Of a stretch of 64,000 nucleotides of DNA, positions 25,981 through 56,290 are shown piece after piece (within the stretch, counting starts at the first letter, position 1; each line of letters starts with the position of its first letter). The notes under the pieces are model-generated. The model saw only the letters and a list, made by a program, of their open reading frames with translations, made no database searches and had not been told where the DNA came from. The stretch covers positions 2,208,001 through 2,272,000 of the forward strand of contig OZ242296.1 of assembly GCA_965207735.1 (NCBI GenBank), in the 5' to 3' direction. Source of the DNA: Candidatus Versatilivorator sp. (GTDB lineage Bacteria; Acidobacteriota; Terriglobia; Versatilivoradales; Versatilivoraceae). The translations under genes and the position numbers were made by a program.

Positions 25981-25983
25981 CCG

Positions 25984-28149
25984 ATGGCGCAGAGAAACAA
26001 GACGAGACCGAGCAAGCGCAAGCGATCGGCCTTGAGGGCAGCCTCCTCGCCCAAGGCAAGTGCCCCCGGCACAACCGAAACCGGAAGGGCTCAATCGTCC
26101 CCGGTTCCTCGCGAGTCCAGGCGGTTGTTTGACCGGTTCTCGGGCCGGGGTGCGCTGGCCGCCCTGGCGCTGGGCCTGCTGGCGGGGGTGTGCTACCTGC
26201 CGGCAATGCTTTGGGGCGGCTTTGTCTGGGATGACTTCATCTGGTTTCAGTCCCGGGCGGTGCTGGAGTGGTCCGGCCTCGGCGACATCTGGTCCTGGCC
26301 GTCGCGCATTCACCGAGAGGTGCACTACTGGCCTCTGACCTATACCACCTTTTGGCTGGAACACAAGATGTGGGGCCTGGCTCCGGCCGGCTATCACATC
26401 GTCAACGTGCTGCTGCACCTGCTGAACTCCCTGCTGGTGTGGCGCCTGCTGCTGCGCCTGGCCGTGCCCGGGGCCTGGGTTGCGGCCGCCGTGTTCGCCG
26501 TGCATCCGACGCACGTGGAGTCGGTGGCCTGGATCATCGAGCGCAAGGACGTGCTTTCGGGTCTTTTCTACCTGGCTGCCGTGCTGGTCTGGCTGCGCTT
26601 CCTGGAAAAACCGCGACCCTGGCGCTACGGCCTGGCGCTGCTGCTGTTCGCGGCGGGCCTGTTGAGCAAGTCCATGGTGGTGACGCTGCCGGCGGCCTTG
26701 CTGATTGTCCAGTGGTGGAGGAACGGCCGCATCGCGGTTCGGGATCTGCGGCGCATGGCCCCGTTCTTCCTGGTGGCTCTGCTCATCACGGCACTGGATC
26801 TCTACTCGGTCGGTTCGAAGTCCAGTCTGCTGGACTACTCGCTTCCCGAGAAGATGCTCATCGCGTCGCGGGCCTTGTGGTTCTACGCGGGCAAACTGGT
26901 CTGGCCGGCCGATCTGGCCATCATCTACCCGCGGTGGGACATCAGCCTCGGGGAACCCTGGGCTTGGCTCTACCTGGCCGGGGCGGGTGCACTGGCAGCC
27001 ACGCTGTGGTCGATGCGCCACAGGATTGGGCGCGGTCCGCTGGCCGGAGCCTTGTTCTTCGCAGTGACGCTGTCGCCGGTGCTGGGCTTCGTGAATCACG
27101 GTTACATGGACTACTCCCTGGTGGCCGACCGCTTTCAATACCTGGCCGGCATCGGGGTCATGGCAGTCCTCATCGGCGCCGCCGTACAGGGCGCCGGCCG
27201 GCTGCAGGGCCGATTGAAGTGGGGGGCGGCGGGTCTTCTGGTGGTGGTGCTGGCGCTTCTTGGAACCATGACCTGGAGCCAGGCGGGAATCTACCGGGAC
27301 AAGATCACCTTCTTCAGCCACATCGTCTCTCTCAATCCGGAGGCGCGGAACGCTCACTTCAATCTCAGCCAGGCCTTGGGCAGGGCAGGCCGTACCGAGG
27401 AAGCCCTGGCCCCCGCCCGGATGGCCGTGGAACAGCGCCCGGATGATGCCAGAGCCCTTTGCATGCTCGGTTCCGTACTGATTCACATGGAACGGTTCGC
27501 CGAGGCCGAGGAGACCTTGCGCCGCGCCCTGGAGATCGATCCCGACCACAAGTGCAGTCGCCGGGAAATGGCCCATATGCTACGGATGCAAGGACGCCGT
27601 GAGGAAGCGCTCGACGCCTATCGCGCGCTGCTTGAAATCTACCCCAACTACGCCCTGGCCTATGCCTACGTCGGCCGTGTGCTGGTTCAGCTCCAGCAAT
27701 ACGAAGAGGCCGTCAACCCCCTGAGCAAGGCCCTGGCAATGACCAGGGCGGCATCGTCCGTGACGGCGGAATTGCCCAAACCCGTGTCTGTTCATGTGCT
27801 CCTGGGCACGGCCTTGCGGGAGCTGGGGCGGACCCGGGCGGCGGAGGATCACTTCCGGCAAGCCCTGCAGCTCGACCCGCGCAACAGGGAGGCGCTCGAC
27901 CAGGTCGCCGCGGCGCATTTCAGGCGGAAGCGTTTCCAGGAGGCGCTCGATCTCTATCGAACCCTGTTGGAGATCGCTCCCGACGCGGCATCCGCTCACG
28001 CCGACATCGGCGTGACCCTCTACTACCTGGACCGAACCGAAGAAGCCATCCGGAGCCTGGAGCGGGCTCTTGCCCTGGACCCGTCCCTGGAAACGGCCAG
28101 AAACAATCTCGAAGAGATCCGCAAGAGAATCCGGCAACCGGAGGAATAG
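25984..28149 (+). CDS. TMTC-like GT-C membrane protein with C-terminal TPRs, copy 1
   Basis: FVWDD acidic motif after TM1, YWPLT, YH.VNV.LH, FAVHP.HVESVAWI.ERKD, ADRFQYL, TPR array. Confidence 0.85.
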   Translation: MAQRNKTRPSKRKRSALRAASSPKASAPGTTETGRAQSSPVPRESRRLFDRFSGRGALAALALGLLAGVCYLPAMLWGGFVWDDFIWFQSRAVLEWSGLGDIWSWPSRIHREVHYWPLTYTTFWLEHKMWGLAPAGYHIVNVLLHLLNSLLVWRLLLRLAVPGAWVAAAVFAVHPTHVESVAWIIERKDVLSGLFYLAAVLVWLRFLEKPRPWRYGLALLLFAAGLLSKSMVVTLPAALLIVQWWRNGRIAVRDLRRMAPFFLVALLITALDLYSVGSKSSLLDYSLPEKMLIASRALWFYAGKLVWPADLAIIYPRWDISLGEPWAWLYLAGAGALAATLWSMRHRIGRGPLAGALFFAVTLSPVLGFVNHGYMDYSLVADRFQYLAGIGVMAVLIGAAVQGAGRLQGRLKWGAAGLLVVVLALLGTMTWSQAGIYRDKITFFSHIVSLNPEARNAHFNLSQALGRAGRTEEALAPARMAVEQRPDDARALCMLGSVLIHMERFAEAEETLRRALEIDPDHKCSRREMAHMLRMQGRREEALDAYRALLEIYPNYALAYAYVGRVLVQLQQYEEAVNPLSKALAMTRAASSVTAELPKPVSVHVLLGTALRELGRTRAAEDHFRQALQLDPRNREALDQVAAAHFRRKRFQEALDLYRTLLEIAPDAASAHADIGVTLYYLDRTEEAIRSLERALALDPSLETARNNLEEIRKRIRQPEE

Positions 28150-28180
28150 TGGCTCGAAGAAGCGCGAACAGAGAGCAAAG

Positions 28181-28337
28181 ACCCCCCGGGAGCGCGGGCG
28201 TCCCGCCTGCACAAGGCCCGGCACCAAGGAAGAGAACTCCGTAGTGGCGGTTTCGGTGCGCTTTGCAAGGGAGTGGCGTGGGTGGGAGGCAGTTTGCAGG
28301 AAAAAGGATGCGGGCGGGAGGCCCGCCCCCCCGGGGG
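28181..28337. repeat. Family C mini-element between the TMTC paralogs
   Basis: REP, CACAAGGCCCGGCAC, RAYT-3'-like spacer, inverted REP. Confidence 0.8.
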
Positions 28338-28352
28338 AAGAAGGGAAACAGA

Positions 28353-30548
28353 ATGGTGAAGAGAAAGAAAAAGAGACGCACTCAGCGCAGGCGCTTGGAC
28401 TCGGGGCCGGCTTCCTCGCCTCAAGCCATGGTCTCCGTCAAAGCCGGGTCCGCAAAAACGCAGTCGTCCTCCGCTCCCCGGCAGGCGACCGGGTTTTTCG
28501 ACGGAATCTCGCGCCGGGATGCGCCGGCCGCCCTGGCTCTGGGCCTGCTGGCGGGGGTCTGCTACCTGCCCGCGATGCTTTGGGGCGGCTTTGTCTGGGA
28601 TGACTTCATCTGGTCTCAGTCCCGGGCGGTCCGAGAGTGGTCCGGTCTCGGCGCCATCTGGACCTGGCCAAATCTGATTGAGAAAGAGGCGCACTACTGG
28701 CCGCTGACCTATACCACCTTCTGGCTGGAACACAAGATGTGGGGACTCGAGCCGGCCGGCTATCACGTCGTCAACGTGCTGCTGCACCTGCTCAACACCC
28801 TGCTGGTGTGGCGCCTGCTGCTGCGTTTGGCCGTGCCCGGGGCCTGGATTGCAGCCGCCGTGTTTGCCGTGCACCCGCTGCACGTGGAGTCGGTGGCCTG
28901 GATTTTCGAGCGCAAGGACGTGCTATCCGGTCTTTTCTACCTGGCTGCCGTGCTGGTGTGGCTGCGCTTCCTGGAAAAACCGCGACCCTGGCGCTACGGC
29001 CTGGCGCTGCTGCTGTTCGCGGCGGGCCTGTTGAGCAAGTCCATGGTGGTGACGCTGCCGGCGGCCTTGCTGATTGTCCAGTGGTGGAGGAACGGCCGCA
29101 TCGCGGTTCGGGATCTGCAGCGGGTGGCGCCGTTCTTCCTGGTGGCGCTGCTCATCACGGCACTGGATCTCTACTCGGTCGGTTCGAAGTCCAGTCTGCT
29201 GGACTACTCGCTTCCCGAGAAGATGCTCATCGCGTCGCGGGCCTTGTGGTTCTACGCGGGCAAGCTGGCCTGGCCAACCGATCTGGCCGTCATCTACCCG
29301 CGGTGGGACATCAGCCTCGGGGACCCCTGGGCATGGCTCTACCTGGCCGGGGCGGCGGCGCTGGCGGCAACGCTGTGGTTCCTGCGCCACAGGATTGGGC
29401 GCGGTCCGCTGGCCGGGGCGCTGTTCTTTGCGGTGACGCTGTCGCCGGTGCTGGGCTTCGTGAATCACGGCTACATGCAGTACTCCTTTGTGGCCGATCG
29501 CTTTCAATACCTGGCCGGCATCGGGGTGATGGCGGTCGTCATCGGCGCCGCCGTACAGGGCGCCGGCCGGCTGCCGGGCCGATTGAAGTCGGGGGCGGCG
29601 GGTCTACTGGTGGTGGTGCTGGCGCTTCTTGGAACCATGACCTGGCGCCAGGCGGAAATCTACCGGGACGCCGTCACCTTCTTCAGCCACATCGCCTCTC
29701 TCAACCCCGAGGCGCGGAGCGCTCACTACAATCTCAGCATCCATTTGACCAGGGCAGGCCGTCCGGAGGAAGCCCTGGCCGCCGCCCGGATGGCCGTGGA
29801 AAACCGCCCTCAGGCCAAAGACCTTTCCACCCTCGGCGCCGCGCTGATTGACATGGAACAGTACGTCGAGGCCGAGGAGGTCTTGCGCCGCGCCCTGGAG
29901 ATTGATTCGAGCCACAAGAATACTCTCCGGCAAATGGCCAGAATGCTCAGGGAACAAGTACGCTTCGAGGAAGCGCTGGAGGCATACCGCCGCTTGCTCG
30001 AAATCGACCCCGAGGACGCACTTGCCCACGGCTACACGGGCAATATACTGTTCAACCTACATCGACCCGACGAAGCCATCGAGCCCCTGAACAGGGCCCT
30101 GACACTCACCCGGGCCGCACGGTCGCTGACACCGGACTTGCCGACGCCGGAGGCTCTGCATGTCCTGCTGGGCAAGGCGTCGTGGGAAGCGGGCCGACTC
30201 CAAGTGGGAGAGGAGCACTTCCGGCAAGCTCTGCAACTCAATTCGCGCAATACAGAGGCACTCGAGCATATCGCCGTTTCGCATTTCAGGCAGAATCGTT
30301 TCCAGGAGGCGCTCGATCTGTATCGAACCCTGTTGGAGATCGATCCCGACAAGGCGTCCACCTACTCCAACCTGGGCGCGGCCTTGTATCAACTGGGCCG
30401 GTTCGAAGAAGCACGCCAAAGCCTGGAGCGCGCGCTCGCCCTGGACCCTACCCTGGAAATGGCCAGATCCAACCTCGAAAAGGTACGCAAGACCGTGCCA
30501 AAGCCGGGGGAAAGCGCGTTCACCCCGATGGCGCCCGCAAGGAAATGA
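28353..30548 (+). CDS. TMTC-like GT-C membrane protein with C-terminal TPRs, copy 2
   Basis: Same motifs as copy 1 and near-identical membrane domain; start re-called at MVKRKK. Confidence 0.85.
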   Translation: MVKRKKKRRTQRRRLDSGPASSPQAMVSVKAGSAKTQSSSAPRQATGFFDGISRRDAPAALALGLLAGVCYLPAMLWGGFVWDDFIWSQSRAVREWSGLGAIWTWPNLIEKEAHYWPLTYTTFWLEHKMWGLEPAGYHVVNVLLHLLNTLLVWRLLLRLAVPGAWIAAAVFAVHPLHVESVAWIFERKDVLSGLFYLAAVLVWLRFLEKPRPWRYGLALLLFAAGLLSKSMVVTLPAALLIVQWWRNGRIAVRDLQRVAPFFLVALLITALDLYSVGSKSSLLDYSLPEKMLIASRALWFYAGKLAWPTDLAVIYPRWDISLGDPWAWLYLAGAAALAATLWFLRHRIGRGPLAGALFFAVTLSPVLGFVNHGYMQYSFVADRFQYLAGIGVMAVVIGAAVQGAGRLPGRLKSGAAGLLVVVLALLGTMTWRQAEIYRDAVTFFSHIASLNPEARSAHYNLSIHLTRAGRPEEALAAARMAVENRPQAKDLSTLGAALIDMEQYVEAEEVLRRALEIDSSHKNTLRQMARMLREQVRFEEALEAYRRLLEIDPEDALAHGYTGNILFNLHRPDEAIEPLNRALTLTRAARSLTPDLPTPEALHVLLGKASWEAGRLQVGEEHFRQALQLNSRNTEALEHIAVSHFRQNRFQEALDLYRTLLEIDPDKASTYSNLGAALYQLGRFEEARQSLERALALDPTLEMARSNLEKVRKTVPKPGESAFTPMAPARK

Positions 30549-33692: not shown

Positions 33693-33704
33693 CGACTGGT
33701 GTCC

Positions 33705-35641: not shown

Positions 35642-37411
35642 TCAGTTTCCGAGGTTTTCTCCCCTGGCCGGGGAACGTGCTCCTCCGAACTCCGGATCGG
35701 GAATCACCAGGGCCAGGTAACCGGTGGCCATGTCCAAGGATGCTCCCTGCATGGAATCGATCAGGATCATGGCCATTCCATGGGCATGACGGAAGCCTGC
35801 CCGGGCGATGGCGTATCCCTCGAATCCGGGCAGGAAATCGCTGCAGGTAAACGAAACGGTATCGCCCGCGGCCAGGCTGGAGGCGATCTCCATCACCATG
35901 GTCGGCGGCACCCTTCCGCTGGAGCCGTCGAAAGTGGGGATGCTCCTGGCAAAGGCATGAAACACGACGCTTCCGGACTGCTCCACCGCACCGCCGCTGA
36001 GTCCGAAGACCCCGTCGTCGCTGGTGGTGTTGGCAATGGAAATGACCATGTCCCAATTGGGGTAGGCGCCGCAATTGAGTTGGGGGAACAGCAGGTAGGT
36101 GACACACGGGGTGAAGTTCAGGATGCGGCCGTCGGGAAAGACGATCTCCGGATCGGATTCCGGCATCATCAGGTAGGAAAGCACCGAAGCGCGATCGTCG
36201 TCCTCACCGCTCTTGCCGGCCGGTCCAAGCCAAGCCCAGATATCGGCGATGCCGCCGGACCCCGCCATGTCGGGGTCGACTTCAACCGTGAACTCGATCT
36301 TGAAGAAATCCGAAACGGTGGCGACGTTCCTGTCGCCAGCGCCGGTCCTGCCCTCCGCGGTGGCGGCGTAGATGTAGGTGACCGTCTCGCCGGTGCCGGC
36401 AGCCACCGTCTCGCCCTCGACCTCTTCCTGACCGGCACCCCTATTATTGGCCGCATCCACCTGTCCGGCCTCTCGACGGGATGCATCCGTCAGGGTGAGA
36501 TTGCTCCAAGCGTTACGGGGGGAGGCATCCTGGTCGGGATCCATGAAATTGACCCCATGGGGCCAGCGCAAGTCGGTCCCCTCGGGCAAGTTGTTCACCT
36601 GGATGGTGACCCTGGTGGAGCCGATCCCGGATCCTTCATCGTCTTCCCAGGCCCGGGCGAAGCCCTCGGTCACCGTGATGGACGGGACGCCGCCGATGGG
36701 AACTTCAACGTCGTCGGCCGTATCGGCGGTGCCCTGGTCATCGGTCATGGTTCCGAGGTTGCACAGGAGCCGGTTGGCGCGCCCGACTTCAACCCTCAAG
36801 CCGTCCCTGACGATGGACACCCTGCCCCCCACGTTTTCGGACCTCTCCCGATCGATGGGAACGAACCCGGTGGGAGCCGTGGCGGAATTGATGGAGGCCA
36901 GGATCCTGTCTCCATCGGACAGGCGCGAAACGTCGGCTCGCACTCCCCGCAGAACCACAAAGCCGAACTGGCCGGCATCGGGCCGGGCGGTCCCCAGGGC
37001 GAGGGTGACCGTGCCGACCCCGGTGTCCTTGTCATTGGCGATGGTTGCGGCAATGCCGCCGTCGCAACTGGTGTCGGCTTCTCCTTCGGCGTCAGTCTGG
37101 TTGAAGGTACCGGCGCACAGCAACTCGGCGCCTCCGGTGAGATAGAGGCCACCGTAGTTCACGGTGACGGTCCTGCCGTCATCGATATCGCCGCCGCCGT
37201 GGGAGTAGTCCAGCCGGATGGCGCCCATCTCCTGGTTGCGTCCGTGCTGGACCACGGTCGTCTCGGATTTGGAGACTATGAATCCTTGGGCGTTGGCCCG
37301 CGTAAGGGACAGTCCCGGCAGGAGCAAGGCGCACAATAGAAGGGTTGATGGTGTTCGCAGGTTCTCGGTCGCCATTGTGAAGATCCAGCGGAGAAACGGC
37401 CGTCGTATCAA
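35642..37411 (-). CDS. Secreted acidic Gly/Thr/Asp-rich protein, S-layer-like, paralog 1
   Basis: GAGGAG RBS with TTG start; signal peptide ending ANA/QGF; colinear with 38617-40326, sharing VTYLLFP, FEGYAIA, FRHAHGMA and GYLALVIPDPEF. Confidence 0.7.
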   Translation of the reverse strand: MIRRPFLRWIFTMATENLRTPSTLLLCALLLPGLSLTRANAQGFIVSKSETTVVQHGRNQEMGAIRLDYSHGGGDIDDGRTVTVNYGGLYLTGGAELLCAGTFNQTDAEGEADTSCDGGIAATIANDKDTGVGTVTLALGTARPDAGQFGFVVLRGVRADVSRLSDGDRILASINSATAPTGFVPIDRERSENVGGRVSIVRDGLRVEVGRANRLLCNLGTMTDDQGTADTADDVEVPIGGVPSITVTEGFARAWEDDEGSGIGSTRVTIQVNNLPEGTDLRWPHGVNFMDPDQDASPRNAWSNLTLTDASRREAGQVDAANNRGAGQEEVEGETVAAGTGETVTYIYAATAEGRTGAGDRNVATVSDFFKIEFTVEVDPDMAGSGGIADIWAWLGPAGKSGEDDDRASVLSYLMMPESDPEIVFPDGRILNFTPCVTYLLFPQLNCGAYPNWDMVISIANTTSDDGVFGLSGGAVEQSGSVVFHAFARSIPTFDGSSGRVPPTMVMEIASSLAAGDTVSFTCSDFLPGFEGYAIARAGFRHAHGMAMILIDSMQGASLDMATGYLALVIPDPEFGGARSPARGENLGN

Positions 37412-37532
37412 TTCTTTCTCCTCAATGAAGTATGCCGCGGATTCGCCCAGTGCTTATCGACACCCCGACGGAATTCGCGCCGGCTTCCGAGCCGCCGGGT
37501 GAATGCCAGCCAGGACCAGGGTCCATTGAAGT

Positions 37533-38384
37533 CTAGGGATTCGCCGGTTCGGAGGGCCTACTGCCGGCGGCTTCCCGCGAGGGGCTGGGGGGCTGGGCGG
37601 CCTCTTCGGGAGTGTACACCTTGCCCGTGATGCGAAGCTTGACCATTTCCTTGACGGGCTCGAACTGGACGAAGAAATCCTGCACAAAAACTCCGTGAAG
37701 CTTGGCCGTGTCGAGTTCCACCAGGATCTCTCCCGATTCCCCGGCCGGAATCACCCGCTTTTCCGTCCTGTCGGCGATGAGACGCTCGGGACCATGGATC
37801 CTCTCGACCACAATGTCTCCGGAGGAAGCGTTGCGAAAGGAATAACGGGATTGGACGGGATCGCCCTGCACGGCCGTTGCGAAATCGAAGACCGATTGCT
37901 CGAACTCCGCCTTGGTGGCGGCTCCCAGCTTATCGTAGTAGTACTCCCTGAAAAGCTCGGCATCGGATTGGGGAGGATCGGCCGGGTCCAGGAACCACTC
38001 CCCCTCCTGCTTCTTCCAGCGAAACCTATCCCTGACCGTCAAGCGGCTGATTCCCCCGGCCGCGACCACTCGGCTAATAGTGACGATCGCCGAACTGTTG
38101 CCGACGTCGGGTTCCACGCCCACGATGCGGAAGTTGCTGATTCGGGCCTTCCCTGACCGGGAGACGTCGACGGCATCCCTGGAACCGGGAAGGATGAACT
38201 CCCTGGCCTGGCTGAAACGCCGGGCGTGAACCGCCCTGAAGTAGGCGGTCACCCGCTGCTTGAGCTGCTCCACGTCGGCCTGGCCTCCCTCCTCCGAACC
38301 GGTCACGGCACTTGCCGACATCCAGGACGCCAGCAGGACGGCCAACAAACCCGTGGAAAGCAGAATACACGTCGATCGCAGCAT
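37533..38384 (-). CDS. Exported protein with C-terminal DUF1573-like Ig domain
   Basis: Signal peptide; FDF...QGD.V...YSFRN...IPAGESGEI.V..DT....G.F pattern. Confidence 0.65.
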   Translation of the reverse strand: MLRSTCILLSTGLLAVLLASWMSASAVTGSEEGGQADVEQLKQRVTAYFRAVHARRFSQAREFILPGSRDAVDVSRSGKARISNFRIVGVEPDVGNSSAIVTISRVVAAGGISRLTVRDRFRWKKQEGEWFLDPADPPQSDAELFREYYYDKLGAATKAEFEQSVFDFATAVQGDPVQSRYSFRNASSGDIVVERIHGPERLIADRTEKRVIPAGESGEILVELDTAKLHGVFVQDFFVQFEPVKEMVKLRITGKVYTPEEAAQPPSPSREAAGSRPSEPANP

Positions 38385-38559
38385 TTCCGAATCCCCTTTT
38401 TAAGAATTATCCCCGATTCTACCCAACCAAGAACCGCCCTGCGAACCCTGCCCGGATGAGGCTTCGACAGAGTATGCCGCCGAACCGGCCCGACATTGTC
38501 AACCTCGGGCCGGCAGCTCTGCCCTGATCACCCGCCACAAGGGTTCCCGTCCGGCAGAG

Positions 38560-38594
38560 AAAAAAAAAGGGTAGCCACCGGAGTGGCTACCCTT
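38560..38594 (-). terminator. Strong Rho-independent terminator of S-layer-like paralog 2
   Basis: AAGGGTAGCCAC-tccg-GTGGCTACCCTT perfect stem followed by a T-tract on the minus strand. Confidence 0.9.
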
Positions 38595-38616
38595 GCAATC
38601 GGCATGGAGGCCTGGA

Positions 38617-40326
38617 CTACTGCCCCAGGCTTTCTCCATCGTTGGCTCCTCTTCCGGCGTTGTTGAATTCCGGATCGGGAATCACCAGGGCCAGGTAGCC
38701 ATGGGCCACGTCCTGGGAAGCTCCGTCGGCAAAGTTACCCAGGACGATAGCCATTCCGTGGGCATGACGGAAGCGCGCCTTGGCTATGGCATACCCTTCG
38801 AACCCGGGCATGATGGTGCTGCAGGTGGTCGAATAGGTATCGCCCGCGGCCAGGCTGTCGGTCAGCATCATGCTCATGGGTTTTGCCATGTGCTTCATGC
38901 TGTCCTCACCGTAGGTGCTCCGCGGGAAGGCGTGCAGAATGATGTCTCCGTTCTGGGCCGCCGCACCGTCACTGATTCCAAAGACTCCGTCATCCAGGGT
39001 GGTGTTGGAGATGGCGATGGCGGTGGTCCAGGCGGGGTCAGAGCCGCAGGTGAGGTAGGGGAAGAGCAGATAGGTGACGCACTCGGTGAAGTTGATGATG
39101 TCACCATCGTCGGATTCCGGATCGGTAACCGGGCTCATGTTGTAGGACAGTATCGTACCCCGGTCGTCGTCGTCACCGCTCTTGCCGGCCGGTGAAAGAA
39201 ACGCCCAGAGATCGGAGATGCCGCCGGCGCCCACGTCGGCCAGTGTGGCGATGTCGACATCGAACTCGATCTTGAAGGCTTCGGACTCGGTGGTCACGCT
39301 CTTGTCGTTGGCGCCGGTCCTGCCTGCCGCTTCATTCGAGTACACATAGGTGACCTCATCGCCGGCGGTGGCAGCGACAGTCGTGCCATCGACGTCTTCC
39401 TGACCCGCACCCGTAGTGCCGACAACCCTGCCGGCAGTCCGCCGGGAGGCGTCCGTCAGGGTGAGAGTGCTCCATACAGTGTCCACGTCTTCGGCGGGAT
39501 CCGCGAACGTGACCGTATGCGGCCAGCGCAAGTTCACTCCCTTAGGCAGATTGAGCATCTTGACGGTGATGTTGGTGGCGGAGATCCCGGATTGTTCCAC
39601 GCTTTCAAAGGCCGTGGCGAAACCCTCCGTCACCGTGATCGACGGGGTGCCGCCGATGGGAGTCGAAGTATCGTCTGCAGTGTCGTCCGTGCCTTGGTCA
39701 TCTACAAGGTCACCGATGTTGCACAGGAGCCGGCTGGCGCCCCCGAGCGTCACGGCCAAGCCGCCCTTGACGGTGGACACCACGCCACCCACGCTCTCGG
39801 TCCTGTCCTGGCCGATGGGAACGAAACCGCTCGGGGCCGAGGAGGAATTGACCGAGGCCACGATGGTGTCGCCGGCGGACAGGCCCGAAACGTCGGCCCT
39901 GACGTTTTTCAGAATGACGAAAGACCCGGCCGCCCGGCCCGCGGTCCCCATGCTGATGGTGACCGTTCCGACGCCGGTGTCGTCATCGTTGGCAACGGCA
40001 GCCGTGATAGCGGAGCAGGTGTCGGTTCCGAAACCGCCGCCGCACTGCAATGTAGCGGTGCCAGCGGTGGTGGAAGCGTTGTCGTTGGCAATGGCGGCGG
40101 AGGTGATCCTCAAACTACCGTAGGTCACCGTGATGGTCCTGCCGTCATCGATGTTGCCGCCGCTGGCAGCGTAGTCCAGCCGGATGGCGCCCATCGGCTG
40201 GTTTCTACCATGCATGACCACATCGGTCTCGCTCTTGGAGACGGTGAACCCTTGGGCATTCACCTGGGTCGCAGCCATCCCCAGCATGAGCAAAGCACAT
40301 ACTGCAATGGTAAATGTAACTCTCAT
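38617..40326 (-). CDS. Secreted acidic Ser/Thr/Gly/Ala-rich protein, S-layer-like, paralog 2
   Basis: GAGGAG RBS; MRVTFTIAVCALLMLGMAATQVNA signal peptide; own strong promoter and terminator. Confidence 0.75.
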   Translation of the reverse strand: MRVTFTIAVCALLMLGMAATQVNAQGFTVSKSETDVVMHGRNQPMGAIRLDYAASGGNIDDGRTITVTYGSLRITSAAIANDNASTTAGTATLQCGGGFGTDTCSAITAAVANDDDTGVGTVTISMGTAGRAAGSFVILKNVRADVSGLSAGDTIVASVNSSSAPSGFVPIGQDRTESVGGVVSTVKGGLAVTLGGASRLLCNIGDLVDDQGTDDTADDTSTPIGGTPSITVTEGFATAFESVEQSGISATNITVKMLNLPKGVNLRWPHTVTFADPAEDVDTVWSTLTLTDASRRTAGRVVGTTGAGQEDVDGTTVAATAGDEVTYVYSNEAAGRTGANDKSVTTESEAFKIEFDVDIATLADVGAGGISDLWAFLSPAGKSGDDDDRGTILSYNMSPVTDPESDDGDIINFTECVTYLLFPYLTCGSDPAWTTAIAISNTTLDDGVFGISDGAAAQNGDIILHAFPRSTYGEDSMKHMAKPMSMMLTDSLAAGDTYSTTCSTIMPGFEGYAIAKARFRHAHGMAIVLGNFADGASQDVAHGYLALVIPDPEFNNAGRGANDGESLGQ

Positions 40327-40557
40327 TTTCTCTCCTCTTTGTTTGGATCTAAAAACTAAAGACACTTCACATTTTTAACGAACAACGATGGAAACTCCAG
40401 TGGCAGCAGCTTGATATTTAGCGGGCGCTCACCTCCTCTTCCCTGGTGAGAATTTGCTGGAGGAAGCCCTCATGGCCCTCTCGAACAGCCTTCCCGTATC
40501 TATCAAACTGTGCATCACTGCGTACCGAAAAATGAATTTCGCTGCAAAACCAGCGGT

Positions 40558-40607
40558 AAGCTAACACCCTCAAAATGGCCTGTCAAGGATTTTTTTGGGG
40601 TTTTTTG
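40558..40607 (-). promoter_or_regulatory. Strong sigma70 promoter with A-tract UP-like element
   Basis: Minus strand A-tracts, TTGACA (40586-40581), 17 nt including extended TG, TAGCTT (40563-40558); implies a 5' UTR of about 225 nt. Confidence 0.7.
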
Positions 40608-40734
40608 AGCTAAGAACATCGTAAAACGGGAGTTAGTAGCCGAAGGGACAGTCGCCGGAGGGCCGTGCCGATCCCTCCTTTTCCCCTTCAATTAGAGTAT
40701 GCATCCGGAGGCGGGGGTTTTTGTCAGGGGTAAA

Positions 40735-41212
40735 AAGATTTCCACCAGGCGGATCCACGAAGGACGCGGAGGGATCGGAGGAGAATCGTGACGGGGGTTA
40801 AAGGATTTCCACGAAGGGGCACGAAGGCGTTGGGGGTGGATCGGGAGGGGGTTGCCAGGGTTCGGAAGGGGGAAAAGGGAAAAAGATTTCCACGAAGGGG
40901 GTCCGAGGGGAATTGTGACGGGGGTTAACAGATTTCCACGAAGGGGCACGAAGGCGTTGGGGGTGGATCGAAAGGGGGTTGCCAGGGTTCGGGAAGGGCA
41001 AAAAGGGGAAAAGATGTCCACGGAGGGTTCGGAGGTGAATCGTGACGGGGGTGAAGGGATTTCCACGAAGGGGGTTCGGAGAGGAATTGTGACGGGGGTT
41101 AACAGATTTCCACGAAGGGGCACGAAGGTCCACGAAGGGGCACTAAGGCGGCGGAGGTGGATCGAGAGGGGGTTGCCAGGGTTCGGGGAGGGGGAAAAGA
41201 TTTCCACGGAGG
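40735..41212 (+). repeat. Family D array
   Basis: TTTCCACGAAGGGGCACGAAGG and GTGACGGGGG units. Confidence 0.85.
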
Positions 41213-41214
41213 GT

Positions 41215-41880
41215 TGCCGATCGCCACTTACGGGACGCCGAGTTTGCCCCCCTCCGGCTCGACTGCGGGCTCCGCCCTCTCGCCGACTCCCCCTCAAGGG
41301 GGGAGTGATACTTGAGGCCTGCACAAGACCTCTTGCCCGATTCCTGGGCGGGGTGTAAACCATGTTCCCGGTCCAATGGGTAAACGCCGTTCCCGGTTAG
41401 TGCCGCGGGTATCACTCCCCCCTTGAGGGGGAGTCGCAGAAGTCGAGCCGAATGGCGAAGGCTGATGCGGTGGGGGGCGGACGCCGGCGCGGCTTTGGGG
41501 GCAACGCGTGCCGTTGAAGTAGGTCCGTCTCGCTTCGCGGCTCTGCGAGCACTGCCGGTCGCCGCTTACGGGACGCCGAGTCTGCCCCCCTCCGGCTCGA
41601 CTGCGGGCTCCGCCCTCTCGCCGACTCCCCCTCAAGGGGGGAGTGATACTCGAGGCTTGCATGGGGCGCCTTGCCTGATTCCTGGGCGGGGTGTAAACCA
41701 TGTTCCCGGTCCAATGGGTAAACGCCGTTCCCGGTTAGTGCCGCGGGTATCACTCCCCCCTTGAGGGGGAGTCGGAGAAGCCGAGCCGAATGGCGAAGGC
41801 TGATCCGGAGGGGGGCCAACGCGGCGTCCCGAGAGTGCTCCTCCCGCCGTCGATCCAGAGGGGGGCAGACGCCACCTACC
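41215..41880. repeat. Family B tandem array (about 338-bp period)
   Basis: Hairpins near 41286, 41411, 41624 and 41749. Confidence 0.88.
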
Positions 41881-41914
41881 GGGGATCACAACCCTTCCCG
41901 GTAATCAATTCCGC

Positions 41915-42139
41915 TTACCGAAGAATTTTGCAAATGGCTCTCTTCAGTGTCACGTCTTTGTACCGAACTGAGATCGGCGTTTGAGCAACAAAAGGGATCT
42001 TCCTGGCTCTCAACTCGATTTCCAGGGCTTCCTGGTAAATCGATTCCAGAAAGCCCGGGCCAAGCTCGCGATGCACCTCAATCGCAGCTCCCACAACGGC
42101 GTACACTTCGTCTTTCAATATCAAATCCGACACTGCCAA
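41915..42139 (-). pseudogene. Truncated GxxExxY protein (PD-(D/E)XK-like nuclease family)
   Basis: YAVVGAAIEVHRELGPGFLESIYQEALEIEL....IPF..Q..I.V.YK with the GxxExxY motif; only 74 aa, lacking the expected D...IVELK half. Confidence 0.85.
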
Positions 42140-42169
42140 CTCTCATGGCCCACCTGCCAAGGCTAGAAA

Positions 42170-42387
42170 CAGGCGCCAACCCCTCCCGGTTCTGCATAGA
42201 CTCCCTTCGTGGATATCTTTTTCCTTTTCCTTCGCGACCCCTGGCAACCCCCTCCCGATCCTCCTCCAACCCCTTAGTGCCCCTTCGTGGACCTTCGTGC
42301 CCCTTCGTGGAAAAGTCTTTTTACCCCGTCAGGTTCTGCACGGACCCGCTTCGTGGCACTTCGTGGCGCTTCGCGGCCCTTCGTGGA
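42170..42387 (-). repeat. Family D array between gspD and the GxxExxY gene
   Basis: On the minus strand the gspD stop TGA is followed directly by TCCACGAAGGGCCGCGAAGCGCCACGAAG. Confidence 0.85.
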
Positions 42388-44613
42388 TCAGTTCGCGTCC
42401 CGGCTCAGCTCCTTCTTGAGGCCCTTGAGGGTGGATTTCAGTTCCTCGGTGAGATCGGCGGCCTGTTCGATGTCCTCGATGACCTGGGGGGTGATGAGGG
42501 CGATGAGCTCGGTGCGGGTCTTCTTTCGGGAGGTGGTGCCGAACAGCAGACCCAAACCCGGGATCCGGCCCAGCAGGGGAACCCGGTTCCTGGAAACGCC
42601 GTTGCTCTCGGAAATGATGCCTCCGATGGCGATGGTCTGTCCGTTCTTGACGGTCACCTGGGTATCGACGGAACGGATGTTGATGCTGGGAGACTGGATG
42701 CCCGAGGTGGGCGGAGGCCCCGGGCTGCTCACTTCCTGCTGTACCTCCAGGGTGACCCAGCCCCCGGCGTTGATTCGGGGGGTGACGCTGAGAATGACGC
42801 CGGTGTTGCGGTTCTGGATGGTGTTGGAGAAGAGGCTGGTGCCGCCGGTCCCGCCCGGAATCACACCCTGGGAGGTCAGGATGGGTATCTGGGATCCCAC
42901 CTGGATGTTGGCGGCCACGTTGTCGGAGGCGATGACGGTGGGGGCCGAAAGCACCCGGGAGCGGTTGCGGGTCTCCTGGGCATTCAGAAAAGACACCAGT
43001 TCGCGGGTGTCGCCCATCAGGACCCTGGTGGCCAGGTTCAGGCCCGCCGACACGGCGCCGCCGGGCCCGAAGCTGGCGGTGGTGTTGGAGGGGCCTGCAA
43101 CCGCCCGGTTGCCGCGCTCCTGCAGAAAGGCCGAGATGCCCATGGAGAGCTCGTCGTCCAGCACCACCTCGTAGATCTTGACGTTGATCAGGACCTGGCG
43201 GGGCACCCGGTCCAGCTCCCGGATGGTTTCCTCGATGACCTCGAAGTCCTGGGGGCTGCACTGGACGATGACGGCGTTGTTCTGATCGTCGGCGACGATC
43301 TTGATCTCTCCCTGCACGATCTCTTCCGACCTTGCCAGCGGATCGGCGGCGCCCGCCGCGGTCCCGGCCTGAGCGCTTTCGGGGGGGAGAAGGATCTCCT
43401 CCTCCTCTCGCTTGCCGGCTCCATAGATTTTCAGCAGCAGCTCGGCAATGGCCACGGCGTCGCCGTTCTGGATCTTGACGAAGAAGTTGCGAACCTCGCG
43501 GTTGAGACCGGCCTGGTCCAGCCGGGCGACCCAGCGGTCGACTTCCTTGAAGGTGCCCGGACCGGGGCCGATGGCCAGCACCGAGTTCAATCGGGGAATG
43601 GGCACGAACCGGACGGGAGAATCTCCCGCCAGGGCGTAGCCGGCGAAGATGTCCTCCAGCTCCAGGGCCAGGTTGGTGGCCCGGCTGTTCCTGAGCTCAT
43701 AGAGGCGGACGCGCTTGCCGCCGAACACGTCCGAGTCGAAGATCCGGACCAGCTCCAGCAGCTTGGCGACGTTGGCGGGAGTGTCGGTAACGATCAGAAA
43801 GTTGGCTGCCCGGTGGTAGGTGATGTCGCCGCCGTCCGAGAGAAAGGGGTTGAGCAGCTCGGCCATCTCGGCGGCCGGCACGAAGTCCATGGGAACGATC
43901 TGAAGCACCCGGCTGCCCCCCGCGGGCGCGGCGGAGGCTTCCCGGCCCCGTCGAATGTCCAGCGGCAGTTGCCTGGCGTTGCGGCTGGGAATGATGCGGT
44001 AGAGGGGCCCGGTCCTGACGATGGCGGCGCCGTTGATCTGCAGGACGAGCTCCAGCAGCGGCATCAGGTCGCTACGCCTCATCTCGCCGTAGGTAAGGAT
44101 GTTGACCACTCCCTGTACCCCGGGGTCGACGATGTAGTTCAGCTTCAGCTCGTCGGCGATGTTGCGAACGAACTCGAGCAGTCCGCAATCCACGCAATTG
44201 AAGCGGAAGCGGGCGTTGGGCCCGGTGGGTCCCGAAGTCTGCAGGATCGGGCGGGCCTCCGGATCGGAAACCTCCTCCGGCCCGGGCGCGGCGGCCTCGC
44301 CGGAAGCCGGCGGCTCCGCCTCGGCCTCGGCCGGGGCGGGAGCAGCCTGCGGGGCCGCGGAGCCAGTGCCTGGCGCCGGGCGGCGGCCTCCCCCGAAAGG
44401 CGTGGGGATCGGCTCGGGCTGCGACTCGGGCTCCCCGGCCTCGGGCTCCGAGTCCTCCTCCGCCGGCGGCGAGGCCTGGGCGGAATTGTCGGCCTGGTCT
44501 TCTTCGGCCAGGGCCTGCAGGGGCAGGATTATCCCCAGACCGATCAGCAGCGCCAGGGCAAAGCCCCGGCCCATTGAAGACGATGCGATTCGAACCATGA
44601 TGCGACTCCTCAC
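42388..44613 (-). CDS. gspD: Type II secretion secretin
   Basis: N0 domain (FNCVDCGLLEFV...LNYIVDPGVQGVV), N-domain repeats, RQVLINVKIYEV, VPLLGRIPGLGLLFG, TELIALITPQVI; start uncertain. Confidence 0.93.
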   Translation of the reverse strand: MRSRIMVRIASSSMGRGFALALLIGLGIILPLQALAEEDQADNSAQASPPAEEDSEPEAGEPESQPEPIPTPFGGGRRPAPGTGSAAPQAAPAPAEAEAEPPASGEAAAPGPEEVSDPEARPILQTSGPTGPNARFRFNCVDCGLLEFVRNIADELKLNYIVDPGVQGVVNILTYGEMRRSDLMPLLELVLQINGAAIVRTGPLYRIIPSRNARQLPLDIRRGREASAAPAGGSRVLQIVPMDFVPAAEMAELLNPFLSDGGDITYHRAANFLIVTDTPANVAKLLELVRIFDSDVFGGKRVRLYELRNSRATNLALELEDIFAGYALAGDSPVRFVPIPRLNSVLAIGPGPGTFKEVDRWVARLDQAGLNREVRNFFVKIQNGDAVAIAELLLKIYGAGKREEEEILLPPESAQAGTAAGAADPLARSEEIVQGEIKIVADDQNNAVIVQCSPQDFEVIEETIRELDRVPRQVLINVKIYEVVLDDELSMGISAFLQERGNRAVAGPSNTTASFGPGGAVSAGLNLATRVLMGDTRELVSFLNAQETRNRSRVLSAPTVIASDNVAANIQVGSQIPILTSQGVIPGGTGGTSLFSNTIQNRNTGVILSVTPRINAGGWVTLEVQQEVSSPGPPPTSGIQSPSINIRSVDTQVTVKNGQTIAIGGIISESNGVSRNRVPLLGRIPGLGLLFGTTSRKKTRTELIALITPQVIEDIEQAADLTEELKSTLKGLKKELSRDAN

Positions 44614-50584: not shown

Positions 50585-51016
50585 TCATTGTTCGCGCGGG
50601 ACGGGGACCCAGGTCATGGTCTCCAATGAATAGCGGTTCTCGGACCCGCTGCCCGGCCAGGCGACCTGCAGCCGGACCCGGGCCAGCCGGTAGGCTCTGC
50701 GGGGCCCTTCCTCCTCGTCGCCGCCGGCGGCTTCGATCTGGGCCCGCCAGCGGTACTTGCCGCCGAACTCCCCCGAGCGGGCCGCCGGCTCCCTGCCCTG
50801 CCGCAGAGCCAGGCAGATCTCATTGAGCTTCATCTGGGCGTTGCGGACCAGCGTCTCGCGGTCCTCAATGCGGGAGACCGACTGCAGCGAGCCCGACAGC
50901 ACTCCGAACAGCGCCACAAAACCCACTCCCAGGATGGTCACGGCCACCAGCACTTCTATCAGGGTGAAACCCTGGGCGGCGGGCTTGGAAGCAGGTTTTC
51001 GGGCCATCGGCAGCAT
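50585..51016 (-). CDS. gspI: Type II secretion minor pseudopilin I, copy 1
   Basis: QG/FTLIEVLVAVTIL prepilin motif; purine-rich RBS. Confidence 0.8.
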   Translation of the reverse strand: MLPMARKPASKPAAQGFTLIEVLVAVTILGVGFVALFGVLSGSLQSVSRIEDRETLVRNAQMKLNEICLALRQGREPAARSGEFGGKYRWRAQIEAAGGDEEEGPRRAYRLARVRLQVAWPGSGSENRYSLETMTWVPVPREQ

Positions 51017-51149
51017 CTCTCTTCCCTTCCCCTTAGAGCGTTTGAATCGCAAGAAAGTCGAAAGAGGCGTCGGGGATTGTGGATTTTGGATTGTAGGTTA
51101 TCGATTTGGGGCGCATTCAGACGTCGTAGGTCCCAATCGACTGATGGTC

Positions 51150-51930
51150 GCTCACGGGACGCCGGGTTGGCCCCCCTCTGGCTCGACGGCGGGCTGCGCT
51201 TTCTCGCGACGCCGAGTCTGCCCCCCACCGGATCGACGGCGGGCTGCGCCCTGTGGTAGTCACTCTCGGGGCGCCGAGTCTGCCCCCCTCCGGATCGACG
51301 GCGGGCTGCGCCCTTGTCTCTCCGACTCCCCCTCAAGGGGGGAGTGATACTCGAGGCTTGCATGGGGCGCCTTGCCCGATTCCTGGGCAGGGTGTAAACC
51401 ATGTTCCCGGTCTAACGCATAAACTCCGTTCCCCCTTCATAACACGGATATCACTCCCCCCTTGAGGGGGAGTCGCAGAAGTCGAGCCGAATGGCGAAGG
51501 CTGATGCGGTGGGGGGCGGACGCCGGCGCGGCTTTGCGGCAACGCGTGCCGTTGAAGCAGGTCCGTCTGGCTTTGCGGCTCTGCGAGTACTGCCGATTGA
51601 CACTTTCGGGACGCCGAGTCTGCCCCCCTCCGGATCGACGGCGGGCTGCGCCCTTGTCTCTCCGACTCCCCCTCAAGGGGGGAGTGATACTTGAGGCTTG
51701 CATGGGGCGCCTTGCCCGATTCCTGGGCAGGATGTAAACCATGTTCCCGGTTTAATGTGTAAACGCCGTTCTCGGTTAGTGCCCGCTATCACTCCCCCCT
51801 TGAGGGGGAGTCGCAGAAGCCGAGCCGAATGGCGAAGGCTGATGCGGTGGGGGGCCAACTCGGCGTCTCCGAACGGTAGAGCCGTATGGCGAAGGCTGAT
51901 GCGGTGGGGGGCATACGCCGGCGCTCCCGG
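51150..51930. repeat. Family B array inside the 1380-bp duplication
   Basis: Hairpins near 51324, 51450, 51665 and 51788; 51605-52417 matches 50225-51037. Confidence 0.85.
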
Positions 51931-51964
51931 GGGGATCTCTTTCCGGGGAGCATGCCGGAGCCCG

Positions 51965-52396
51965 TCATTGTTCGCGCGGGACGGGGACCCAGGTCATGGT
52001 TTCGAGTTGGTAGCGGTTCTCGGACCCGCTGCCCGGCCAGGCGACCTGCAGCCGGACCCGGGCCAGCCGGTAGGCTCTGCGGGGCCCTTCCTCCTCGTCG
52101 CCGCCGGCGGCTTCGATCTGGGCCCGCCAGCGGTACTTGCCGCCGAACTCCCCCGAGCGGGCCGCCGGCTGCCTGCCCTGCCGCAGAGCCAGGCAGATCT
52201 CATTGAGCTTCATCTGGGCGTTGCGGACCAGCGTCTCGCGGTCCTCAATGCGGGAGACCGACTGCAGCGAGCCCGACAGCACTCCGAACAGCGCCACAAA
52301 ACCCACTCCCAGGATGGTCACGGCCACCAGCACTTCCATCAGGGTGAAACCCTGGGCGGCGGGCTTGGAAGCAGGTTTTTGGGCCATCGGCAGCAT
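51965..52396 (-). CDS. gspI: Type II secretion minor pseudopilin I, copy 2
   Basis: Copy of 50585-51016 offset by 1380 bp with four visible amino-acid differences (R/Q, I/M, E/Q, S/Q). Confidence 0.8.
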   Translation of the reverse strand: MLPMAQKPASKPAAQGFTLMEVLVAVTILGVGFVALFGVLSGSLQSVSRIEDRETLVRNAQMKLNEICLALRQGRQPAARSGEFGGKYRWRAQIEAAGGDEEEGPRRAYRLARVRLQVAWPGSGSENRYQLETMTWVPVPREQ

Positions 52397-52417
52397 CTCT
52401 CTTCCCTTCCCCTTAGA

Positions 52418-55043: not shown

Positions 55044-55547
55044 CTAATTCTCTTGTGGAGGGGCCTGCAGGATTCGGGGTGAGCGGCTGAAGGCCTGCTG
55101 CACCACTCGGAGGGAGCGGCCGCGGGCATTGACCAGCCGGATTTCGAGGGCCTGGGAGAGGCCGCTGGGAGCAAAGTAGAAGTCGGTGCGCTCGGGCGGC
55201 GGGCCCGGCCGAGGCGGGGTCCCGTCCAGCAGCAGCGCCTCCTGCAGGCGGACGCCCGGCGGAAGCTGAAAGGACCGCTGGAACTCCAGGTCCCCGCTGG
55301 CCACGGTCACCCGGCGCTGCTCCCGGTCCAGGCTCACCAGGTGAATCTCCTGGCTCCGGATGGCCCGGCCCCGGGCAAGTCGTAGGGCGGCCGCCACATG
55401 GCGGGCGGCGCTCTGCAGGCGCAGGGTCTGGATGCCGGCTCCGGCGACGGGCACGGCCACCGCCGTGATGATCCCCACCAGCACCAGCACCACCAACATC
55501 TCCAGCAGTGTGAAGCCGGCCCGGTTTCTTGTCGATGGGTGTGCCAT
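55044..55547 (-). CDS. gspH: Type II secretion minor pseudopilin H (FimT-like)
   Basis: AG/FTLLEMLVVLVL motif, LRLARGRAI, F.PSG; start at MAHPST. Confidence 0.82.
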   Translation of the reverse strand: MAHPSTRNRAGFTLLEMLVVLVLVGIITAVAVPVAGAGIQTLRLQSAARHVAAALRLARGRAIRSQEIHLVSLDREQRRVTVASGDLEFQRSFQLPPGVRLQEALLLDGTPPRPGPPPERTDFYFAPSGLSQALEIRLVNARGRSLRVVQQAFSRSPRILQAPPQEN

Positions 55548-55602
55548 TGAGGTCCTTGGCTGCGTTTCCGTGGCTTGCGATCGGCGTGTGCCCAACGCTA
55601 TT

Positions 55603-56260
55603 TGCTGTCGCCGCCTTCGCGGCTCGGCTCTCGCCGTAACCCTTTCCATGGGCTTACGCCCACGGCTACCTGCTGCCGCGGCTTCGCCGCTCGGCTCGTA
55701 ATGCCGATCGCCACTTTCGCGACGCCGCGTTGGACTCCCACTGGATCGACTTTGGGGCAACGGGTGCCGTTGAAGCAGGTCCGCCTCGCTTCGCGGCTCT
55801 GCGAGTACTGCCGATCGTCACTTACGGGACGCCGAGTCTGCCCCCCTCCGGATCGACGGCGGGGCAACGCGTACCGTTGAAGCAGGTGCGTCTGGCTTTG
55901 CGGCTCTGCGAGTAATGCCGATCGCCACTTTCGCGACGCCGAGTCTGCCCCCCTCCGGATCGACGGCGGGCTTCGCCCTTGTCTCTCCGACTCCCCCTCA
56001 AGGGGGGAGTGATACTTGAGACTTGCATGGGGCGCCTTGCCCGATTCCTGGGCAGGATGTAAACCATGTTTCCGGTTTAATGTGTAAACGCCGTTCCCGG
56101 TTAGTGCCCGCTATCACTCCCCCCTTGAGGGGGAGTCGCAGAAGCCGAGCCGAATGGCGAAGGCTGATGCGGTGGGGGGCCAACTCGGCGTCTCCGAACG
56201 ATAGCGCCGAATGGCGAAGGCTGATGCGGTGGGGGGCGGACTCCGGCGCGGCTTTGGGGG
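55603..56260. repeat. Family A REP followed by family B array between gspG and gspH
   Basis: REP near 55646; hairpins near 55990 and 56113. Confidence 0.85.
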
Positions 56261-56290
56261 CGGGACGTCCGGGCTCCCGGGGAGTGCCAA

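What the first reader, a model, noticed from the sequence alone, without database searches (positions are those of the whole stretch)
35642..44613. Candidate acidobacterial S-layer locus next to a dedicated type II secretion system
Seen: two paralogous secreted proteins of about 570-590 aa, acidic and rich in S/T/G/A/D, with conserved cysteines and a shared C-terminal domain (TYLLFP..CG...IAISNT..D...FEGYAIA..FRHAHGMA...GYLALVIPDPEF). Paralog 2 has a consensus TTGACA promoter, a long leader and a strong terminator, which are hallmarks of a very abundant monocistronic product. Both lie just downstream of gspD, with glycosylation genes on either side of the region. Established: some diderm S-layers, such as that of Aeromonas, are exported by a linked T2SS. 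Inference: an uncharacterised S-layer or surface-lattice family with its export machine, the second paralog being a minor or variant subunit.
Basis: partly seen in the sequence, partly recalled or inferred. Interest (0 to 1): 0.72.

Follow-up and report, generated by a model that had tools for sequence, protein, structure and literature searches.

The report
Candidate crystalline coat of Acidobacteria
A gene with conserved strong-expression signals sits directly behind the type II protein-export machinery in many Acidobacteriota and encodes an unnamed secreted protein predicted to join in rings of four, so it is likely the building block of a crystalline surface coat (S-layer) in a major bacterial phylum where such coats were an open question.

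Summary
Two secreted, acidic paralogs (569 and 577 aa, 57% identical) flank a DUF1573 gene, downstream of the genome's only full T2SS. They belong to a large unnamed family (2,006 clusters; no Pfam or PDB sequence hit). In 401 genomes of the class, family and full-length gspD co-occur (both 139, family only 18, gspD only 3, neither 241). gspD lies upstream on the same strand in 28 of 40 sampled loci. Copy A's promoter, ribosome site and terminator recur in 13 of 13 close primary copies and 0 of 3 secondary copies. AlphaFold gives three beta-sandwich domains (pLDDT 91). The C-terminal domain is predicted to tetramerise (0.88 versus best control 0.08), and paralogs carry four fused repeats resembling it. 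Layout and predicted architecture match the Aeromonas AvsA S-layer locus, but the Slr4 profile does not match. Best reading: major S-layer subunit with a dedicated T2SS (0.75). No lattice, abundance, export or glycosylation is shown; there is no RNA data and codon bias was uninformative. Glycosylation genes were confirmed on one side only. The scan noted a similar locus on other DNA (e1-6650868).

The parts
38617..40326 (-). Copy A, predicted major S-layer subunit, 569 aa: signal peptide 1-24, D1 25-187, D2 188-416 (C202/C416 pair), D3 417-569 (predicted tetramer hub), conserved C-terminal E-x-L-x-Q tail
40558..40608 (-). Sigma-70-type promoter of copy A: A-tract (40608-40587), TTGACA (40586-40581), 17-nt spacer, extended -10 TG-n-TAGCTT (ends 40558)
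   Evidence: sequence; conserved; rare in the genome
40327..40557 (-). About 225-nt leader with ribosome site AGAGGAG at 40338-40332; leader length varies from 97 to 389 nt in relatives
   Evidence: no Rfam hit
38557..38594 (-). Intrinsic terminator after copy A (12-pair stem plus T-run)
37533..38384 (-). DUF1573 protein, 283 aa, hydrophobic N-terminus, C-terminal Ig-like domain; conserved neighbour (24 of 40 loci); likely an assembly or export helper (inferred)
35642..37375 (-). Copy B, 577 aa, 57% identical to A; lacks the promoter and terminator signals; start codon uncertain (alternative TTG at 37411)
42388..44613 (-). gspD secretin, the only full-length T2SS secretin in the genome
44655..49690 (-). 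gspC, gspM, gspL, gspK, gspJ
50585..52444 (-). Two near-identical gspI-type pseudopilin genes (local duplication)
55044..60177 (-). gspH, gspG, gspF, gspE
60199..62120 (-). ECF sigma factor, zinc-finger anti-sigma-like protein and an unnamed 203-aa ORF directly upstream of gspE; link to the locus inferred from position only
23156..30548 (+). GT2-GtrA, GT22-type and two PMT-TPR glycosyltransferase genes; loosely linked, no role shown

Best explanation
Copy A likely encodes the major subunit of an S-layer that would be exported through the type II secretion system encoded directly upstream. Shown from sequence: signal peptide, intact adjacent T2SS, conserved promoter, ribosome site and terminator, conserved linkage and co-occurrence with gspD. 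Predicted: three beta-sandwich domains, and four D3 domains joined head to tail in a ring, with the C-terminal tail laid onto a neighbour. Inferred: Sec export and disulfide formation in the periplasm (C202-C416, C427-C502), passage through GspD, a D3 hub on a four-fold axis facing the cell and possibly holding surface glycan, and variable D1-D2 arms linking hubs into a square (p4) lattice. Copy B would be a low-level minor subunit, and the DUF1573 protein a helper.
For: (1) Linkage: gspD lies upstream on the same strand in 28 of 40 fetched loci (8 of 9 families), within 2 kb in 25 of them; also in 14 of 19 named loci and in 4 of 4 genomes of one family from another class. (2) Co-occurrence in 401 genomes: both 139, family only 18, gspD only 3, neither 241. 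In one mixed family 15 of 16 carriers have gspD and 0 of 63 non-carriers do. The single carrier among 80 genomes of another family has both, side by side. (3) Expression signals are in 13 of 13 close primary copies and 0 of 3 secondary copies. Only 27 sites in the 5.26-Mb genome match the promoter pattern; 16 belong to one IS, and this is the only other one with an AT-rich upstream tract. (4) Model pLDDT 90.9, pTM 0.87, all-beta, tail disordered in the monomer; Foldseek returns only generic Ig-like surface proteins, TM at most 0.33. (5) Four copies of D3 score 0.88 against a best control of 0.08; the mark was reached by 20 of 30 proteins solved as pairs and 1 of 23 solved as single chains (rough here: four copies, own alignment); runs share at least 82% of contacts, partner pLDDT at least 80. 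Interface residues are more conserved than the rest of D3 (0.53 vs 0.44, p 0.016). (6) Five paralogs keep D1-D2 but end in four tandem repeats of about 110 aa; the D3 profile aligns to one repeat (E 0.001; reversed control 0.61), which suggests a single-chain four-fold hub. (7) D1 and D2 diverge faster than D3 and much faster than GspD (L003: 36/36/60% versus 79%). (8) Known T2SS-linked S-layer genes share the layout; AvsA lies downstream of pulD with three predicted beta-sandwich domains and a low-confidence C-terminal strand.
Against: No lattice, surface location, abundance or export was observed. Only D3 and only four copies were modelled, so the second interface that a lattice needs is untested and other ring sizes or an open arc are not excluded. 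The pass may reflect likeness to the solved TM1070/ASRT tetramer (nearest fold, E 0.003, 12% identity). Codon usage of A is average (59th percentile; GroEL 65th and 88th). The promoter pattern was defined after seeing the site and is absent from 9 of 9 f5 and 3 of 3 f106 loci. 12 of 40 loci have no gspD nearby, and G136 has no secretin near its two copies. Enrichment of the most conserved residues at the interface is not significant (17 of 26, p 0.07). The D3-to-repeat match has HH probability 22%. No sequence link to any proven S-layer protein. Loci were chosen for high score and long contigs, not at random, and kin are not independent.
Confidence: 0.75

Rival explanations
1. It is an abundant T2SS-exported tetrameric adhesin or matrix protein that binds glycans through an ASRAH-like D3 but forms no crystalline sheet.
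For: The nearest solved fold of D3 is TM1070, a tetramer predicted to bind sugars. Whole-model hits are adhesin stalks such as antigen I/II and PrgB. No lattice-forming second interface was tested.
Against: Usually one full-length gene per genome, tied to the only T2SS, with isolated strong-expression signals: the pattern of VapA, AvsA, Slr4 and NpdA. Adhesin hits have TM at most 0.33.
Confidence: 0.13
2. The subunit builds a filament, tube or sheath, with the DUF1573 Ig protein as a chaperone.
For: Head-to-tail interface with a donated C-terminal tail; weak Foldseek hits to pilins; conserved Ig-domain neighbour. Four copies cannot separate a ring from an arc.
Against: Four fused D3-like repeats in paralogs fit a closed four-fold hub. 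Residues 514-521 (mature numbering) touch both neighbours, as near a rotation axis. No usher gene was recognised among the window ORFs scanned.
Confidence: 0.06
3. It is a periplasmic or outer-membrane-associated structural partner of the T2SS, not its cargo.
For: Sec-type signal peptide and near-strict co-occurrence with gspD fit an accessory part as well as a substrate.
Against: Own promoter and terminator separate it from the gsp operon. It diverges far faster than the Gsp proteins. No lipobox or membrane segment.
Confidence: 0.05
4. On copy B only: it is a silent donor for recombination-based variation of copy A, not an expressed minor subunit.
For: No promoter or terminator pattern in 3 of 3 B copies. 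A/B pairs cluster by lineage in two clades, consistent with repeated duplication or conversion. The two copies in G568 end identically.
Against: B copies form their own well-supported clades with intact frames and short branches. DNA identity to A is only 71-85% in matched blocks. B could be read through from the DUF1573 gene.
Confidence: 0.3

Closest known systems
Aeromonas S-layer loci (A. veronii AvsA, bioRxiv 10.1101/2025.04.15.648961; A. salmonicida VapA; A. hydrophila paracrystalline protein)
   Same: S-layer gene directly downstream of pulD/gspD and near glycan genes; signal peptide; three predicted beta-sandwich domains; low-confidence C-terminal strand in the monomer model; T2SS export.
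   Different: No sequence match was found, and no Aeromonas sequence was available for a direct comparison. Here the T2SS is the genome's only full one. Conserved disulfide pairs, DUF1573 neighbour and four-repeat paralogs were not seen in the passages read.
Slr4 (Pfam PF19526; Pseudoalteromonas tunicata; PMC7821379)
   Same: Gene immediately downstream of a T2SS cluster, Sec signal, similar size. Nearest named family by language-model features: 25 of 30 named hits, score 0.90, 180-186 shared features, with Slr4 on only 10-20% of those clusters' members.
   Different: PF19526 hits none of 53 + 21 aligned members and none of 5 genomes. Structure match to an Slr4-bearing cluster is TM 0.34/0.40 on a weak model. 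The paper's threading model was a beta-helix.
NpdA of Paracidovorax and Delftia (PMC10765051)
   Same: About 52 kDa, signal peptide, no annotated domain, upstream gsp cluster, SDS-resistant oligomer.
   Different: Proteobacterial, linked to one of two gsp clusters; homology could not be tested.
ASRAH domain (ASRT; Thermotoga TM1070, PDB 1NC7; PMC2739507)
   Same: Best structural hit of D3 (E 0.003, TM 0.46/0.61); tetramer; extracellular versions occur as dyads or tetrads; conserved Asn at the end of strand 2, like N441 here.
   Different: 12% identity, no Pfam hit for D3, no Trp at the start of strand 1; D3 is longer and fused to two further domains; not described as an S-layer part.

Membership tests
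S-layer protein (functional class) | Forms a paracrystalline 2D lattice on the cell surface | not testable with these tools
   Only one symmetric hub was modelled; a full-length dimer exceeds the 1000-residue limit.
S-layer protein (functional class) | Secreted, 40-200 kDa, mostly beta or Ig-like domains | tested here: met
   Signal peptide, 56 kDa mature, three beta-sandwiches.
S-layer protein (functional class) | Among the most abundant proteins of the cell | tested here: inconclusive
   Conserved strong signals; average codon usage in a genome with weak codon selection; no RNA holder listed.
S-layer protein (functional class) | Self-association through a symmetric interface | tested here: met
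   Predicted only: D3 x4 scores 0.88, best control 0.08.
T2SS-exported S-layer loci (VapA/AvsA/Slr4/NpdA kind) | Gene adjacent to a gsp cluster, conserved across taxa | tested here: met
   28 of 40 loci, 8 of 9 families; co-occurrence 139/18/3/241.
T2SS-exported S-layer loci (VapA/AvsA/Slr4/NpdA kind) | Export depends on the linked T2SS | not testable with these tools
   Needs a mutant.
Slr4 (PF19526) | Match to the Pfam profile (cut-off 25 bits) | tested here: not met
   No hit at E 0.1 in 74 aligned rows or at E 10 in 5 genomes.
ASRAH superfamily (D3 only) | Eight-stranded beta-sandwich like TM1070 | tested here: inconclusive
   Foldseek E 0.003, TM 0.46/0.61; the VIA-align searches never ran.
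ASRAH superfamily (D3 only) | Invariant Asn ending strand 2 and Trp starting strand 1 | tested here: inconclusive
   N441 is conserved at the end of strand 2; no Trp at strand 1.
S-layer glycoprotein | Covalent glycan and a conserved linked transferase | tested here: inconclusive
   PMT membrane-part homologues in 7 of 40 loci; modification itself not testable.

The most novel reading that the evidence does not exclude
This family is the missing S-layer of a large part of Acidobacteriota: a square lattice built on an ASRAH-derived, glycan-gripping four-fold hub. The canonical T2SS of the class would be kept almost solely to export it, and paralogs that fuse four hub repeats into one chain would plug single accessory proteins into four-fold sites of the lattice. 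It may be a deep relative of Slr4 and the Aeromonas proteins, which would unite T2SS-exported S-layers across phyla.
Probability: 0.3. Interest if true: 0.82.

Novelty: new variant of a known kind. Interest (0 to 1): 0.64.

Why it matters
A 2024 structural survey of S-layers (bioRxiv 10.1101/2024.05.28.596244) says their existence in Acidobacteriota 'remains ambiguous'. This names one gene family, found in 157 of 401 sampled genomes of the class, with a clear carrier/non-carrier split, a predicted hub interface and an export route. It can be tested directly by cryo-ET and surface proteomics in cultured relatives. It would also give a likely main substrate for the T2SS of these bacteria and a candidate variable surface for phage and host contact. 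The export logic itself is known from Aeromonas, Pseudoalteromonas and Paracidovorax, which limits the surprise.

Tried and rejected
No hit for the paralogs in Pfam, NCBIfam or PDB sequences, in plasmids or in Rfam for 34000-45000. Codon adaptation: uninformative, since the measure follows GC3 and places GroEL only at the 65th and 88th percentiles. Slr4 membership: rejected by profile. Enzyme fold: rejected. A broken T2SS: rejected; the IS lies between gspH and gspI and all frames are open. A twin-arginine start for copy B: the upstream TTG and its ribosome site are not kept in the two other B copies. An invertible cassette: the inverted repeats around A-DUF1573-B belong to genome-wide families with 61-72 near-full copies. 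Glycosylation genes on both sides: not confirmed. The VIA-align fold searches never ran, so a structural match to a solved S-layer protein may have been missed. The 32 metagenome loci were mostly short and were not analysed. Literature searches found no paper naming an acidobacterial S-layer protein; the supplements of the 2024 survey (Table S2) were not seen, and a 2021 review's sequence map includes a few uncoloured Acidobacteria entries.
Full report
Observation. The window is part of a 5.26-Mb single-contig genome. The closest named loci are titled Candidatus Versatilivorator or Terriglobia, in Acidobacteriota. Two minus-strand paralogs, A (38617-40326, 569 aa) and B (35642-37375, 577 aa), are 57% identical, acidic (pI 4.2 and 4.3) and rich in G, A, S, T and D. 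Each has a signal-like N-terminus and no other hydrophobic segment. A DUF1573 gene lies between them. Upstream on the same strand is a complete gspE-F-G-H-I-I-J-K-L-M-C-D cluster with open frames; its gspD is the only full-length one in the genome. These are the only two family copies in the genome. Glycosyltransferase genes are confirmed on one side only.

Expression signals. Copy A has an A-tract, TTGACA, a 17-nt spacer, TG-n-TAGCTT, a leader of about 225 nt, AGAGGAG and a strong terminator. All 13 primary copies from the window and the close named loci keep these signals while leader length varies from 97 to 389 nt; none of 3 secondary copies has the promoter or terminator. The promoter pattern occurs 27 times in the genome, 16 of them in one IS; of the other 11, only this one has at least 64% AT upstream, and another precedes the rpsL operon. 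The pattern was defined after seeing the site. It appears in 21 of the 40 wider loci, but in none of the 9 f5 or 3 f106 loci. Codon usage gave no signal, and no RNA run was listed, so abundance remains inferred.

Family. A profile of 53 close homologues hits 2,006 clusters at 50% identity. There is no Pfam, NCBIfam or PDB sequence match. In a 147-row alignment C202 and C416 occur together in 143 rows and alone in none; C427 and C502 occur together in 67 and alone in 2. 112 of 147 rows end in E-x-[LIVA]-x-[QNHK]. A match at E 1e-10, partial paralogs included, was found in 157 of 401 genomes of the class: 24 of 27 in the window's family, 69 of 75 in f5, 22 of 26 in f100, 16 of 79 in f101, 1 of 80 in f2 and 0 of 82 in f3. 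In a phylum-wide sample 19 of 401 matched, 10 of them over most of the profile. The family is thus lineage-restricted, not phylum-wide. The family codes carry no names; that f5 is Bryobacteraceae is my inference from its likeness to loci so titled.

Link to the T2SS. gspD lies upstream within 10 kb in 14 of 19 named loci; one contig is too short and four Bryobacterales loci lack it (an early note said 13 plus 2, recounted here). Of 40 further 20-kb stretches, chosen for score and contig length, 28 have gspD, in 8 of 9 families; three of these appear to repeat loci of the first set. In 28 of 28 it is upstream on the same strand, and within 2 kb in 25. Across the same 401 genomes, family and full-length gspD give both 139, family only 18, gspD only 3 and neither 241. 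At least one of the 18 is a search miss, since G583 has gspD beside the gene. Five carriers with an unlinked gene all have a full-length gspD elsewhere; five genomes from families that almost all lack the gene have none. Kin are not independent, so no p-value is given. Against: G136 has two copies and no nearby secretin. DUF1573 homologues neighbour the gene in 24 of 40 loci and PMT membrane-part homologues in 7.

Structure. The mature A model has pLDDT 90.9 and pTM 0.87, is almost all beta, and has a disordered tail. Foldseek finds three-domain Ig-like adhesin regions at TM up to 0.33 and no S-layer protein among the rows listed. D3 is the most conserved domain. Four copies of D3 scored 0.88 against a best control of 0.08. 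The mark was reached by 20 of 30 proteins solved as pairs and 1 of 23 solved as single chains, counts that hold only roughly for this job; runs share at least 82% of contacts and partner pLDDT is at least 80. The scored copy touches two neighbours through different faces, and the tail becomes part of the interface. The model supports binding and does not show it. D3 alone (pLDDT 89) is nearest to TM1070 (E 0.003, 12% identity), a solved tetramer of the ASRAH superfamily whose extracellular members occur as dyads or tetrads and are predicted to bind sugars (PMC2739507). That supports four-fold assembly, and it also means the pass may partly come from memory. Separately, five paralogs (four from loci that also hold a full-length copy) keep D1-D2 and end in four tandem repeats; four of the five were scanned and match DUF5719 weakly. 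The D3 profile aligns to one repeat at E 0.001, probability 22%, against 0.61 for a reversed control.

Copy B. In the tree, A and B copies form separate supported clades within each of two lineages, so the pair arose twice or was homogenised. B is intact and conserved but lacks the expression signals. A minor subunit read with the DUF1573 gene is somewhat more likely than a silent donor; neither is shown.

Comparison with what is known. It works like the T2SS-linked S-layers. Slr4 lies immediately downstream of a T2SS cluster (PMC7821379; abstract, introduction and passages read). npdA and vapA adjoin gsp clusters (PMC10765051, passages). avsA lies downstream of pulD and is modelled as three beta-sandwiches with a low-confidence C-terminal strand (10.1101/2025.04.15.648961, passages). 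Aeromonas S-layers are T2SS-exported and LPS-anchored (PMC13721041, passages). It is not a member of Slr4 by profile, although Slr4-bearing clusters are its nearest named neighbours by model features (a lead only). The 2024 survey (parts 1-3 of 4 read, supplements not seen) calls S-layers in Acidobacteriota ambiguous. A 2021 review maps a few uncoloured Acidobacteria sequences (PMC8559796, passages), and a comparative genomics paper mentions S-layer only as a dbCAN category (PMC5900883, one passage). Nine searches found no paper on this family; subscription journals are not covered.

Verdict. A real, large, unnamed protein family whose position, signals, fold and predicted four-fold hub all fit the major S-layer subunit of part of Acidobacteriota with its own T2SS (0.75). 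It is a new variant of a known kind. The lattice, export and abundance remain to be shown.

Noticed in passing
window 52490-54330: IS with a 573-aa DDE transposase inserted between gspH and gspI on the opposite strand; 16 near-full copies in the genome, each carrying a near-consensus promoter pattern.
   Followed up: partly
window 50585-52444: The gspI-type pseudopilin gene is duplicated almost identically; relatives examined have one copy.
   Followed up: partly
window 30700-35600, 40690-42390, 49700-56300: Intergenic space is swollen with composite palindromic repeats; two units tested have 61 and 72 near-full copies genome-wide, and relatives of the same genus show similarly long gaps after gspD.
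   Followed up: partly
L035:6452-8860, L036:5880-8234, L037:13215-15491, L040:6734-9331, L030:348-2741: Paralogs of 760-865 aa with the family's D1-D2 followed by four tandem repeats (DUF5719-like in the four scanned), often beside the main gene on the opposite strand.
   Followed up: yes
window 60199-62120; L013, L015, L034-L038: An ECF sigma and zinc-finger anti-sigma-like pair precedes gspE here; in distant loci an ECF gene (about 31% identity) is divergent from the family gene. Seen in only 1 of the 40 class-wide loci.
   Followed up: partly
G136:C1:1439652-1459039; G279:C1:7570129-7573410: G136 has two full copies and a D1-D2 paralog with no secretin nearby; in G279 a D1-D2 paralog lies just downstream of a shorter secretin while the full gene is elsewhere.
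   Followed up: partly
G148, G170, G200, G260, G088, G345: Short frames (about 200-260 aa) that match only the D3 region occur in other families of the phylum.
   Followed up: no
window 6553-11998: Separate type IV pilus pilM-pilO-pilQ cluster with a DUF559 nuclease-like ORF inside it.
   Followed up: no
window 20195-22456: 753-aa protein with many NHL (teneurin-like) repeats.
   Followed up: no
window 34391-34750: 119-aa ORF with short tandem coiled-coil-like repeats and a hydrophobic C-terminus, no convincing family hit.
   Followed up: no
L012: The record title says Acidimicrobiia, but the whole locus matches the acidobacterial arrangement; the label may be wrong.
   Followed up: no
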